Part shown: one piece after another, positions 57,536 to 58,440 of the stretch
Layout of the letters: every line of letters begins with the position of its first letter
Position numbering within the stretch: the stretch's first letter is position 1
Sequence record: PP916316.1
Direction: 5' to 3' (one strand)
From: Pseudomonas phage vB_PaeM_HTN3
DNA length: 64,000 nt
Made by a program: the position numbers and the translations under genes
The notes under the pieces: generated by a model
Told to the model about the DNA's origin: nothing
The model's database searches: none
The model's input: the letters and a program-made list of their open reading frames with translations, nothing else

Positions 57536-58440
57536 TGGTGCGGAGAACATTAATTTAGTCGGCGAACAGGTGAGGTCTGAAAGCTATGTGGGAATTAGGG
57601 TGTTGTGGCGGCGGTGTATTGTGGGAATTGATAGATTTTCGGTATTGGTCTGCTGTGTATGATTGTTGGATTTTGCGTGAAATGTTGAGAAATTGTGGGT
57701 TTGAGGCGGGTTTTTGTGTGGAAATAGCCGCAAATTCCTGGATTGCTATTCTGACTGGGAAGATGGGAGGCCTACTGCCGCGTGGGTTTGCGGCCAAATT
57801 CCCTAATTCCCGGTTTTCCGAGCATGGGTTAAAACTATTCTACAGCGAAAATCGATTGCACAATCCTAATAGAAAAAATCTATCACGGACGTTACCTATC
57901 TTTAAAATTAATAAAATTAATGGGAATTTGGGAATTTGGAATAGTTTAGTCTTTGAAAGCCTCGCGGCGCTAAGCTTGTACATTACCCGGCAAGTTTCCG
58001 ATTCCGCTCAACTCGCGGCAGGGTCGCCGGAAACTTCCGTCCTTCCAAACCATGGGCAGCGGCAACACCACGGCGGACTAAGCGGCAGGGACCAAAACTC
58101 GACGAGCGGAACCAGGAATTAAGCCACAAGGCAGAATCGCTCACCTGGACACATTCCTAACATTCGATTTAACATTTTATCCAAACGCTCATCCGCCACC
58201 CACCAATCCGATCCTCACCCGCCAGCAGACCGCCCATATAACATCCTATAACACCACCTAACACTCATTCACCATCAAACCCACCCAGACCTACAGGCCA
58301 CCCACAAGCAGCCCATAGACGCGCTCCCTGGCCCCATAGTACAATCGCGCCATACTCAGTGTCGCGGCAAAGCACCAGGTCCCAGCCACCTACCCAGCCA
58401 CCGCGACGGTCCAAGAATCGAACTCCAGGGACGCAGCAAC
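57536..58440. other. 900-bp non-coding region: GT-rich segment, AT-rich iteron-like repeats, then a CA-rich segment (candidate origin or pac region)
   Basis: no ORF over 60 aa; motifs GGGAATTAGGG x2, CCCTAATTCCC, AAAATTAAT x2, GGGAATTT x2, CCTACTGCCGC shared with 11520-12170. Confidence 0.5.

What the first reader, a model, noticed from the sequence alone, without database searches (positions are those of the whole stretch)
57536..58440. Second non-coding hub downstream of the helicase with strand-asymmetric GT-rich and CA-rich halves and iteron-like motifs shared with the 11.5-kb island
About 900 bp without ORFs lies between the helicase terminator and terS. From 57590 to 57760 the plus strand is almost C-free. 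From 58140 to 58440 it is almost G-free. Together these read as an imperfect long-range inverted composition, possibly a large stem or a skew switch. Between them are AAAATTAAT x2, GGGAATTT x2, GGGAATTAGGG x2, CCCTAATTCCC and CCTACTGCCGC. These are the same motif classes seen in the 11520-12170 island. The position, right after the primase/helicase genes and right before terS, fits a replication origin, a pac site, or both.
Basis: seen in the sequence. Interest (0 to 1): 0.6.

Follow-up and report, generated by a model that had tools for sequence, protein, structure and literature searches.

The report
Phage packaging start and terS control region
This 960-bp gene-free stretch of a PB1-like Pseudomonas phage is very probably where DNA packaging starts and where the small-terminase gene is switched on, and it is built on a repeat-flanked AT-rich module that has a second copy elsewhere in the genome and may also serve as a replication origin.

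Summary
The window is a Pbunavirus (PB1-like) genome. Window 57485-58442 is non-coding. Its left part is the C-poorest stretch of the 64 kb and its right part the G-poorest. Its motifs recur at 11.5 kb because the two islands are collinear paralogs over about 300 bp.

The centre maps by alignment onto published data. The preferred virion DNA end of JG024 and Ab27 falls at window 57852/57853, inside the palindrome AATCGATT. Four GenBank records start there or one base later. Two sigma70 start sites mapped in phage 14-1 correspond to window 57956 and 58352, and both serve terS.

In relatives from four other genera the same layout precedes the terS homolog: GT-rich flank, inverted repeats and iterons, AT-rich centre, CA-rich flank. 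In E. coli phage WFC the island sits beside terS, 9 kb from the helicase. The terminal-repeat boundaries of WFC and Serratia phage MyoSmar lie in the AT-rich centre.

Each of three genera tested has a second paralogous island upstream of the scaffold gene, carrying its own lineage-specific iterons.

A long stem, a structured RNA, a gene and Chi sites are rejected. An origin role is plausible, because the helicase is a SaPI Rep-like initiator, but it is untested.

The parts
55754..57484 (+). Primase-associated helicase gene, a SaPI Rep1-like self-loading initiator-helicase. The last ~170 bp (57316-57484) occur as two divergent alleles among Pbunavirus genomes.
   Evidence: Pfam VapE-like domain PF05272. 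PDB sequence hit 7pds, E 1e-13. AF2 model with pLDDT 86.9; Foldseek top hits are the 7pds chains, ~495 aligned columns, E 2e-16. C-terminal allele identities.
57510..57537 (+). Predicted intrinsic terminator of the primase/helicase operon: AGGCCGCC-TTCG-GGCGGTCT followed by a T-run.
   Evidence: Scan. The orthologous site is annotated as a predicted rho-independent terminator in phage LMA2.
57546..57830 (+). GT-rich, C-poor left flank. Its sequence is hypervariable, with two allele types only ~49% identical, but its composition is conserved.
   Evidence: A flank of the same composition occurs in MyoSmar, Maja, MATE2 and WFC.
57590..57599 (+). Outlying iteron GGGAATTAGG. A GGKAATTWGG-like copy occupies this position in all Pbunavirus alleles examined (exact in most, degenerate in JG024 and one IMG/VR contig).
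57724..57781 (+). Left boxes shared with island 1: ATAGCCGCAAATT (57724-57736) and GCCTACTGCCGC (57770-57781). The second is the left arm of the outer GC-rich inverted repeat and carries the oriented GCCGC pentamer.
   Evidence: Exact copies occur only in the two islands. Collinear alignment. GCCGC/GCGGC polarity.
57794..57811 (-). Left iteron pair, CCAAATTCCCTAATTCCC. This is two GGGAATTWGG units on the minus strand, pointing opposite to the right pair.
   Evidence: (inverted repeat I2, 94% complementary).
57831..57921 (.). Nearly invariant AT-rich centre. It overlaps the second least stable 100-bp duplex window of the 64 kb and holds the 8-bp palindrome AATCGATT (57850-57857).
   Evidence: Mean pairwise identity 0.88-0.99. 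dG -115.1 against a window mean of -147.6 +/- 8.0. Palindrome.
57852..57853 (+). Packaging-initiation (pac) cut, GCGAAAAT^CGATTGC. DNA to the right, toward terS, is packaged.
   Evidence: JG024 position 59,376 maps to alignment column 392, which is window 57853. Records Pa193, Ab27 and BrSP1 start at this C and PB10 one base later. Fixed read ends reported for Ab27/28/29.
57922..57939 (+). Right iteron pair, GGGAATTTGGGAATTTGG. It forms the spacer of the upstream terS promoter.
   Evidence: Promoter alignment with 14-1 P040.
57917..57956 (+). Homolog of 14-1 promoter P040, read as TTAATG-17-AATAGT, with the transcription start at about 57956. It gives a ~487-nt terS leader.
   Evidence: 14-1 TSS 59399 (+), classed sigma70, in a transcription unit covering only gp76 (terS), mapped through alignment A2. 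The -10 is weaker in this phage than in 14-1, so activity here is inferred.
57955..58140 (+). Conserved right arm. It holds the outer inverted-repeat arm GAAAGCCTCGCGGCGCTAAGCTT and an array of plus-strand GCGGC pentamers (57964, 58015, 58059, 58082).
   Evidence: The oriented GCCGC(left)/GCGGC(right) pattern counts 34 against 4 over five genera.
58141..58315 (+). CA-rich, G-poor conserved flank, transcribed as part of the P040 leader. It has an indel hotspot near 58191: 12 bp shorter here than in most relatives, and a 48-bp insertion in one IMG/VR contig.
58316..58352 (+). Homolog of 14-1 promoter P041, TAGACG-18-TACAAT, with the transcription start at about 58352. It gives a 91-nt leader.
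   Evidence: Scan hit. 14-1 TSS 59807, classed sigma70. The sequence is identical or nearly so in all aligned phages.
58443..59021 (+). terS, the small terminase gene.
   Evidence: PDB 7uxe (named 'Small terminase'; taken to be the E217 TerS structure), E 2.8e-121. Third-codon-position bias 13/3/58.
11574..12004 (+). Island 1, the paralogous copy of the module, upstream of the scaffold/protease gene at 12172. It has the same boxes, iterons, AT-rich centre and a 17-bp perfect outer inverted repeat (AAGCCTACTGCCGCAAG / CTTGCGGCAGTAGGCTT). It includes a perfect 127-bp tandem duplication (11646-11772 and 11773-11899).
   Evidence: It overlaps the least stable 100-bp duplex window of the 64 kb. No strong GT/CA flanks.
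12096..12147 (+). Homolog of 14-1 promoter P014 (sigma70), directly upstream of the scaffold/protease gene.
   Evidence: 14-1 TSS 13257 and its upstream sequence match window 12096-12147.

Best explanation
The region is the packaging-initiation and terS control region of a Pbunavirus.

Proposed sequence of events:
1. Transcription of the primase/helicase operon stops at the terminator at 57510-57537.
2. On concatemeric DNA, terminase makes its series-initiating cut at 57852/57853. The cut lies inside the palindrome AATCGATT in a nearly invariant AT-rich centre, about 40 bp to the right of a pair of inverted iterons.
3. Terminase then packages rightward by the headful mechanism.
4. The centre is bracketed by oppositely oriented GGKAATTWGG iterons, by a GC-rich inverted repeat, and by oppositely oriented GCGGC pentamer arrays. 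I infer these position a symmetric protein assembly on the DNA. TerS, alone or with another phage protein, is the leading candidate.
5. Two sigma70 promoters, with starts near 57956 and 58352, drive terS. The upstream promoter sits inside the right iteron pair and yields a ~490-nt G-poor leader.

How the pieces relate:
- The iteron / inverted-repeat / AT-rich core is a module with a second copy (island 1) upstream of the scaffold gene.
- The GT-rich and CA-rich flanks and the cut belong only to the terS copy.

Shown by mapping onto published experiments: the position of the cut and the two transcription start sites.
Shown by comparison here: non-coding status, paralogy of the islands, and conservation across genera.
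Inferred: which protein binds the repeats, and what the mirrored base composition is for.
For: Identity of the window:
- It is 99.8% identical to phage zikora and 99.1% to F8, both Pbunavirus.

Position of the DNA end:
- In JG024, 36 of 161 reads longer than 30 kb start at 59,376 +/- 5, a ~15-kb XbaI pac fragment fits that site, and coverage dips at 50-60 kb. That position aligns to window 57853.
- The Ab27, Pa193 and BrSP1 records start at exactly that base, and PB10 one base later.
- The SCUT-S1 authors placed a PhageTerm pac site in an AT-rich region.

Transcription:
- 14-1 TSSs P040 and P041, both classed sigma70 and both in units covering only terS, align to 57956 and 58352. No minus-strand TSS is listed there.

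Conservation within the genus:
- The conserved block begins 22 bp left of the cut, while the left flank is mosaic.

Conservation across genera:
- MyoSmar, Maja, MATE2 and WFC all show GT-rich flank, then AT-rich centre, then C-rich flank. In three of them the terS homolog follows directly; in MATE2 it lies 2.7 kb downstream.
- MyoSmar's PhageTerm terminal-repeat boundary and WFC's terminal-repeat boundary lie in the AT-rich centre, 32-42 bp from the left iterons as in Pbunavirus.
- In WFC the island is next to terS and about 9 kb from the helicase, which has no island downstream.

Gene identity:
- terS matches the solved small terminase structure 7uxe.
Against: - No read-start data exist for this particular phage. 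The mapping is by homology.
- A PhageTerm analysis of phage Banzai found no significant peak.
- E217 TerS showed no appreciable DNA binding in vitro.
- Island 1 carries the same iterons, but no DNA end has been reported there. The iterons alone therefore do not specify cutting and may serve another protein.
- In Xylella phage MATE2 the island abuts the helicase and lies 2.7 kb upstream of terS.
- The mirrored GT/CA composition has no demonstrated role in packaging.
Confidence: 0.75

Rival explanations
1. The shared iteron / AT-rich module, present in both island 2 and island 1, is a replication origin of the SaPI type. The Rep1-like self-loading helicase binds oppositely oriented iterons through its C-terminal domain, melts the AT-rich centre and loads itself. 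The phage would then have two origins, comparable to SPP1 oriL/oriR or P4 ori/crr (recalled from memory). This does not exclude the pac function. The pac cut would lie inside one origin.
For: - The helicase is a near full-length structural homolog of SaPI1 Rep (7pds, E 2e-16, ~495 aligned columns).
- SaPI origins lie immediately 3' of pri-rep. They have an AT-rich centre with at least 2 iterons on each side pointing in opposite directions.
- Here the gene order is primase, helicase, then the island, with 2+2 opposed iterons.
- Opposed GCCGC/GCGGC arrays are conserved in five genera, 34 against 4.
- The two island centres are the two least stable duplex windows in 64 kb.
- The module exists in two copies but a DNA end is reported at only one. 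That fits origins better than pac sites.
Against: - In WFC neither island adjoins the helicase.
- Island 2 is a local maximum of cumulative GC skew, and the global minimum is at 52.4 kb (the Banzai paper finds the same).
- Helicase C-terminal allele and left-flank allele are not strictly linked.
- In type-B alleles (14-1, LMA2) the left iterons are not inverted.
- There are no replication data of any kind.
Confidence: 0.35
2. The shared module is an operator array for a phage transcription regulator. That regulator coordinates expression of terS and of the scaffold/capsid operon. The pac cut merely lies nearby.
For: - Both islands sit directly upstream of late morphogenesis or packaging genes and contain mapped sigma70 promoters (P040/P041 and P014).
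- The right iteron pair forms the spacer of P040.
- Lineage-specific iterons co-evolve between the two islands in three genera, as expected for one trans-acting factor.
Against: - No TSS was detected at the P040-equivalent position of island 1 in 14-1.
- Other late operons, such as terL, have no such island. All 7 exact copies of the GGKAATTWGG iteron lie in these two places.
- It does not explain why genome ends fall at a fixed distance from the iterons in three genera.
Confidence: 0.15
3. The GT-rich and CA-rich halves pair as a long stem in RNA or single-stranded DNA, or the leader is a structured regulatory RNA.
For: - The halves have complementary composition, and several short inverted matches link them.
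Against: - The short matches are not collinear: the sums of the arm coordinates differ between pairs.
- The whole region folded as ssDNA gives z = 0.02. The leader folded as RNA gives z = +0.43.
- The consensus fold of 10 sequences has 0 compensatory pairs and a covariation term of +0.88.
- The left half is ~49% identical between alleles while the right half is nearly invariant.
- There are no Rfam hits.
Confidence: 0.03
4. The region encodes a real protein, namely the 178-aa ORF at 57586-58122, which many records annotate as a hypothetical protein (PHROG 18478).
For: - An open frame of 111-228 codons exists in all 12 sequences examined.
- It matches a PHROG family.
Against: - There is no codon-phase bias (14/18/16 and 47/48/52), against 13/3/58 in terS.
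- Frame-shifting 1-nt indels occur between close relatives.
- ORF start and end points differ among phages.
- There is no Pfam hit.
- The curated 14-1 and LMA2 records leave the region unannotated.
- The mapped P040 start lies inside the ORF.
Confidence: 0.03

Closest known systems
pac sites of headful phages with recognition elements on both sides of the cut (P1 pac; SPP1 pacL-pacC-pacR); lambda cosN-cosB-Nu1 for the layout
   Same: - There is a preferred cleavage point in a short central segment.
- That point is flanked on both sides by short repeated elements.
- It lies just upstream of the small-terminase gene, and packaging proceeds toward that gene.
- The phage has a circularly permuted, headful genome.

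The P1, SPP1 and lambda anatomy is recalled from general knowledge and from the review read.
   Different: - The element is much larger, about 900 bp.
- It has mirror-image strand composition, GT-rich on the left and CA-rich on the right.
- It has a GC-rich outer inverted repeat.
- Its core module is duplicated 46 kb away without a reported cut.
- TerS binding has not been shown, and E217 TerS did not bind DNA in vitro.
SaPI replication origins (Rep/PriRep self-loading helicases; PMC9371898)
   Same: - The gene order is primase, Rep-like helicase, then a non-coding element.
- The element has an AT-rich centre with at least 2 short iterons on each side in opposite orientation.
- The helicase is a structural homolog of SaPI1 Rep.
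   Different: - Replication initiation is untested.
- The element also contains the packaging cut and the terS promoters.
- A second copy lies in the structural region.
- In Wifcevirus the element is not next to the helicase.
Paired origin-type elements in one phage genome (SPP1 oriL/oriR; P4 ori/crr), recalled from memory and not tested here
   Same: There are two distant paralogous non-coding elements. They share the same binding repeats and an AT-rich segment, and one of them lies in the late-gene region.
   Different: No initiator binding has been shown here. One copy coincides with pac.
Sigma70 promoters P040, P041 and P014 of phage 14-1 (Putzeys et al., ONT-cappable-seq)
   Same: The sequences are orthologous. 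P041 and P014 are nearly identical to the window sequence.
   Different: The P040 ortholog in this phage has a weaker -10 (AATAGT against TATACT) and GGG-type iterons in its spacer.

Membership tests
pac site of a headful-packaging phage | A preferred, unique DNA end in virion DNA at the site | tested here: met
   Tested by homology only. JG024 read starts and pac fragment and Ab27 fixed read ends map to window 57853. There are no reads for this phage itself.
pac site of a headful-packaging phage | Circularly permuted, terminally redundant virion DNA with no fixed second end | not testable with these tools
   Reported for JG024, Banzai, SCUT-S1 and phiR26. Not measurable from sequence.
pac site of a headful-packaging phage | Location at or next to the small-terminase gene, conserved with it | tested here: met
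   The cut is 590 bp upstream of terS. The island stays with terS in WFC, where the helicase is 9 kb away. Exception: MATE2, where terS lies 2.7 kb downstream.
pac site of a headful-packaging phage | Sequence-specific binding of TerS to the flanking elements | not testable with these tools
   Needs EMSA or footprinting. E217 TerS showed no appreciable binding in vitro.
SaPI-type Rep origin | A Rep-class self-loading helicase is encoded, with a primase gene upstream | tested here: met
   RepB-type primase at 54339-55415 and VapE-domain helicase. Foldseek top hit is 7pds, nearly full length.
SaPI-type Rep origin | Element immediately downstream of rep | tested here: inconclusive
   Met in Pbunavirus, MyoSmar, Maja and MATE2. 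Not met in WFC.
SaPI-type Rep origin | AT-rich centre with at least 2 iterons on each side pointing in opposite directions | tested here: met
   Iteron pairs at 57794-57811 (minus) and 57922-57939 (plus). GCCGC/GCGGC arrays. AT-rich centre. In type-B alleles the left iterons are not inverted.
SaPI-type Rep origin | Rep binds and melts the element, and replication initiates there | not testable with these tools
   No data. The GC-skew polarity is opposite to that of a skew-defined origin.
Structured non-coding RNA or long-range stem | Folding energy beyond composition, and covarying base pairs | tested here: not met
   z-scores +0.43 and 0.02. 0 of 87 predicted pairs are compensatory. No Rfam match.
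Protein-coding gene (PHROG 18478 'hypothetical protein') | Codon-phase substitution bias and a conserved frame | tested here: not met
   14/18/16 and 47/48/52 against 13/3/58 in terS. Frameshifting indels.
Chi-type RecBCD control sites flanking a DNA end | Correctly oriented host Chi (Pseudomonas GCTGGCGC) on both sides of the break | tested here: not met
   No GCTGGCGC on either strand anywhere in the 64 kb.
Mobile repeat (MITE-like element) | Variable presence or position among related genomes | tested here: not met
   Matches to both islands are found in all 298 matching Pbunavirus records. The islands occupy syntenic positions in two other genera.

The most novel reading that the evidence does not exclude
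A supergroup of PB1-like myoviruses (Pbunavirus, Wifcevirus, Myosmarvirus, and probably Bcepfunavirus and Carpasinavirus) carries a conserved two-site cis system. The two sites are paralogous modules, each with iterons, an inverted repeat and an AT-rich centre. Their iterons co-evolve within each lineage. In the most novel reading, these are origins loaded by the SaPI Rep-like helicase. The terS-proximal one doubles as the terminase entry and cleavage site. Replication initiation and packaging initiation would then be physically coupled at one locus. The mirror-image GT/CA flanks would present the same strand chemistry to two outward-facing machines.
Probability: 0.25. Interest if true: 0.75.

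Novelty: new member of a known kind. Interest (0 to 1): 0.5.

Why it matters
Pbunaviruses are among the phages most used against Pseudomonas aeruginosa. Published accounts of their genome ends conflict: defined ends, circular permutation, or no PhageTerm signal.

This analysis pins the packaging start to one nucleotide inside a conserved anatomy. It also shows that relatives with terminal repeats cut at the homologous place. That reconciles the published reports.

Practical consequences:
- It gives a rational 'position 1' for Pbunavirus genome records.
- It tells people who rebuild or engineer these genomes which ~900 bp, plus the second island at 11.5 kb, should not be disturbed.
- It is relevant to generalized transduction risk, since host pac-like sites could be sought with this anatomy.

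The twin islands with lineage-specific iterons, together with the Rep-like helicase, give a concrete and testable candidate for the still unmapped replication origin(s) of this group.

Tried and rejected
Rejected or uninformative:
1. Long stem between the GT-rich and CA-rich halves. The short inverted matches are not collinear, folding z-scores are ~0, and the left half is not conserved.
2. Structured leader RNA. There are no compensatory pairs and no Rfam hit.
3. Real gene in the 178-aa ORF. There is no codon-phase signal, and there are frameshifting indels.
4. Chi-like protection of the two ends left by the cut. The idea was attractive because both 3' tails would be GT-rich, but no Pseudomonas Chi (GCTGGCGC) occurs anywhere in the window.
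5. Phage-specific 'CTGGG' promoter motif of 14-1. CTGGGAA occurs in both islands of this phage, but it is absent from JG024 and other alleles and no TSS maps there.
6. Specificity matching of helicase C-terminal allele, or TerS N-terminal type, with the GGG or GGT iteron variant. The sample is too small and the loci are linked. Recombinants break the pattern: an IMG/VR contig (L007) and JG024 for the helicase, Banzai for TerS.
7. GC-skew origin. The global minimum is at 52.4 kb and island 2 is a local maximum.
8. ssi-like hairpins for the RepB-type primase. The 7-bp hairpin AAAGCCT-N9-AGGCTTT in island 1 is not conserved in island 2, so I did not pursue it.
9. The SCUT-S1 record start gave no extra terminus information.

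Full report
**What the window is**

The 1.2 kb around the finding is 99.8% identical to Pseudomonas phage zikora and 99.1% to F8. It matches 298 Pbunavirus (PB1-like) records. The gene to the left (55754-57484) is the primase-associated helicase. The gene to the right (58443-59021) is the small terminase, matching PDB 7uxe with E 2.8e-121. The curated 14-1 and LMA2 records leave the orthologous ~960 bp unannotated. 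Other records call hypothetical ORFs there.

**Checking the observation**

The strand asymmetry is real and extreme.
- The C-poorest 171-nt window of the 64 kb starts at 57557, with 12 C.
- The G-poorest windows lie at 58126-58310.
- GC skew runs from +0.72 to -0.70.
- 'Almost G-free' holds for 58150-58310 (12 G in 161 nt). It does not hold for the full 58140-58440 (44 G in 301 nt).

The motifs are present and are not chance.
- All seven exact GGKAATTWGG matches in the window lie in the two islands. At up to one mismatch there are 21 matches, against 10.1 +/- 3.2 in shuffles.
- All three exact GCCTACTGCCGC copies lie in the islands.

A 178-aa ORF exists mechanically and hits a PHROG of unknown function, but the region is non-coding.
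- Variable alignment columns show no codon phase: 14/18/16, 47/48/52 and 23/23/21.
- The flanking genes do show it: 22/9/56 for the helicase and 13/3/58 for terS.
- One-nucleotide indels separate even near-identical phages.

**Relation to the 11.5-kb island**

The two islands are collinear paralogs over about 300 bp (11574-~12004 against 57724-58001). The local alignment score is 139, against a block-shuffle null of 29.8 +/- 5.0 with a maximum of 44. The shared order is:
1. ATAGCCGCAAATT
2. GCCTACTGCCGC
3. An inverted iteron pair
4. An AT-rich centre containing CTAATAGAA and ACGTTA
5. A direct iteron pair
6. TTGAAAG-CTYGCGGCA-TA-GCTT
7. CCCG-CAA-TTTCCGA

Island 1 is highly conserved in the five genomes aligned, at 87-93% mean column identity. 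Matches to it are found in all 298 matching records. In this window it carries a perfect 127-bp tandem duplication. That duplication is absent from all 40 records sampled across the ranking.

The two island centres are the two least stable 100-bp duplex segments of the window. Their dG values are -110.0 and -115.1, against a mean of -147.6 +/- 8.0.

**Published experiments that map onto the centre**

- Ipoutcha et al. (PMC10913387) found that 36 of 161 nanopore reads longer than 30 kb from JG024 start at 59,376 +/- 5. An extra ~15-kb XbaI fragment fits that site, and coverage dips at 50-60 kb.
- In my alignment JG024 59,376 is window 57853, within GCGAAAAT^CGATTGC.
- Essoh et al. [quoted passage not shown] They set nucleotide 1 accordingly.
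- The Ab27, Pa193 and BrSP1 records begin with CGATTGC at exactly that base, and PB10 begins one base later.
- The cut lies in the 8-bp palindrome AATCGATT at 57850-57857.
- PhageTerm found no peak for phage Banzai.

**Transcription**

ONT-cappable-seq of 14-1 (bioRxiv 10.1101/2023.10.13.562163, Tables S3 and S5) lists two plus-strand TSSs classed as sigma70, P040 at 59399 and P041 at 59807. Both belong to transcription units that cover only gp76, which is terS. No TSS on either strand is listed between 54251 and P040.

Through the alignment these correspond to window 57956 and 58352.
- For 57956 I read the promoter as TTAATG-17-AATAGT. Its spacer is the right iteron pair.
- For 58352 the promoter is TAGACG-18-TACAAT, which the scan also found.

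The CA-rich stretch is therefore part of a ~490-nt leader of the upstream transcript. Island 1 contains the ortholog of P014, just before the scaffold/protease gene.

**Conservation pattern within the genus**

- From 57831, which is 22 bp left of the cut, to the terS ATG the sequence is 0.87-1.00 identical in pairwise comparison. The exception is an indel hotspot near 58191.
- The left flank, 57546-57830, falls into two allele types that are about 49% identical. Both are still GT-rich and C-poor.
- The last ~170 bp of the helicase gene also come in two alleles. Recombinants (IMG/VR contig L007 and JG024) show that this is not strictly linked to the flank allele.

Composition is thus conserved where sequence is not.

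**Distant relatives**

These relatives share 40-47% helicase identity and 37-43% TerS identity with the window.

| Phage | Genus | Layout |
|---|---|---|
| Serratia MyoSmar | Myosmarvirus | helicase, GT-rich flank (skew +0.70), AT-rich centre, CA-rich flank (-0.4), terS |
| Burkholderia Maja | Bcepfunavirus | the same order |
| Xylella MATE2 | Carpasinavirus | island next to the helicase, terS 2.7 kb further on |
| E. coli WFC | Wifcevirus | helicase followed directly by genes; an 851-bp gap upstream of terS, ~9 kb away, holds a GT-rich flank (C 5-10 per 100), an extreme AT-rich centre (GC 0.17-0.22) and a mildly C-rich flank |

- The WFC terminal-repeat boundary, which is the physical genome end, lies in that AT-rich centre.
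- MyoSmar's PhageTerm-predicted terminal-repeat boundary also lies in its AT-rich centre.
- In all three genera with a mapped end, the end is 32-42 bp to the right of the left iteron pair.

The island architecture therefore travels with terS and the genome end rather than with the helicase. I regard this as the strongest argument for a packaging function.

**Twin islands are conserved too**

- WFC has a syntenic 421-bp gap upstream of its DUF2213 scaffold gene. It is a paralog of the WFC terS island, scoring 104 forward and 129 reverse against a null of 44.7 +/- 5.6. Both carry WFC-specific iterons: ACGGATGAT units on one side of a ~100-bp AT-rich centre and ATCATCCGT units on the other.
- MyoSmar shows the same with its own iterons (TACTTTTCGTTTT / AAAGTAA), scoring 94 against 34.7 +/- 5.7.

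Within each lineage the two islands share iterons that differ between lineages. This points to one lineage-specific trans-acting protein.

An unbiased 5-mer scan over five genera found one oriented pentamer conserved in all of them. It reads GCCGC to the left of the centre and GCGGC to the right, 34 occurrences against 4 in the opposite sense (binomial p = 6e-7). This holds even though the right flank is G-poor.

Long GC-rich inverted repeats bracket the centre in MyoSmar (26 nt, 92% complementary) and Maja (17 nt perfect, 35 nt at 80%). In Pbunavirus island 1 the repeat is 17 nt and perfect. That repeat shows one concerted A/T to G/C change between phages.

The strong GT and CA flanks occur only at the terS island, not at island 1.

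**The origin question**

The helicase model (pLDDT 86.9) has the 7pds chains as its best structural matches. 7pds is SaPI1 Rep in the 'PriRep1 with dsDNA' complex. The match covers ~495 aligned columns with E 2e-16. ASFV PrimPol, NrS-1 and poxvirus D5/E5 follow. The primase has a RepB-type domain.

According to Qiao et al. (PMC9371898), SaPI origins lie immediately downstream of rep. They have an AT-rich centre with at least two iterons on each side pointing in opposite directions, and the iterons are read by Rep's C-terminal winged helix. Both islands fit that description. Two copies with only one cut also suits origins better than pac sites.

Against this:
- WFC breaks the adjacency between helicase and island.
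- Cumulative GC skew has its global minimum at 52.4 kb and a local maximum at island 2 (the Banzai paper agrees).
- There are no replication data.

I therefore keep 'origin' as a non-exclusive rival at about 0.35.

**Rejected readings**

- Long-range stem and structured RNA: z = 0.02 and +0.43, 0 compensatory pairs, no Rfam hit.
- Chi sites: no GCTGGCGC anywhere in the window.
- Mobile element: fixed, syntenic positions in every genome examined.
- Coding gene: no codon-phase signal.

**Verdict**

The finding is a real and conserved cis-acting hub. Its best-supported role is packaging initiation plus terS expression.
- The position of the cut and of the promoters is already in the literature, though tentatively and without anatomy.
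- What I did not find in the papers read here: the nucleotide-level anatomy, the cross-genus conservation with terminal-repeat ends at the homologous site, the oriented GCGGC arrays, and the co-evolving twin island.
- What the mirrored GT/CA composition does remains unexplained. I infer that it reflects a symmetric protein-DNA assembly, and on the right also a G-poor, unstructured terS leader.

Noticed in passing
window 11646-11899: There is a perfect 127-bp tandem duplication inside island 1 (11646-11772 = 11773-11899). It duplicates a 12-bp-stem hairpin (TTCCTAATTTCC...GGAAATTAGGAA) and the palindrome ACGTTATA-A-TATAACGT. All 40 Pbunavirus records sampled across the ranking have a single copy, including one that is otherwise 100% identical (phage steven).
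   Followed up: partly
window 49737-50107 (within the minus-strand gene 49319-50209): The plus strand is almost A-free here, with 1-2 A per 171-301 nt. The stretch encodes the K/E/A/R-rich low-complexity N-terminal half of a 296-aa protein, whose codons lack T.
   Followed up: yes
window 57316-57484: The last ~55 codons of the helicase gene occur as two divergent alleles among Pbunaviruses, 61-69% DNA identity against 84-98% for the rest of the gene. Recombinants uncouple this allele from the adjacent flank allele. The segment lies in the predicted C-terminal domain, which would be the iteron-reading domain if the SaPI Rep analogy holds.
   Followed up: partly
window 58186-58215: This is an indel hotspot in the CA-rich leader. 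The window phage and zikora are 12 bp shorter than most relatives. One IMG/VR contig (L006) carries a 48-bp insertion that looks like a tandem copy of the neighbouring sequence.
   Followed up: no
window 7836-7936: This is the third most AT-rich and least stable 100-bp segment of the window (dG -119.8). It lies in the gap just upstream of the plus-strand gene starting at 8036. 14-1 has a divergent promoter pair (P012, P013) about 9.1-9.25 kb into its own record, but I did not map these onto the window.
   Followed up: no
whole window: The Pseudomonas Chi octamer GCTGGCGC is absent from both strands of all 64 kb. About two copies would be expected by chance, so this is not significant on its own.
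   Followed up: partly
L029 13929-14349 and L028 1699-2549 (E. coli phage WFC); L030 10655-11124 and L026 5564-6326 (Serratia phage MyoSmar): Distant relatives each carry the same pair of paralogous non-coding islands, one upstream of terS and one upstream of the scaffold gene. Each genus has its own iterons: ACGGATGAT units in WFC and TACTTTTCGTTTT in MyoSmar.
   Followed up: yes
window 58052-58081: There is a 9-codon upstream ORF (ATG GGC AGC GGC AAC ACC ACG GCG GAC TAA) in the P040 leader. It is conserved in relatives with one Ser/Arg change and has no obvious Shine-Dalgarno sequence.
   Followed up: no
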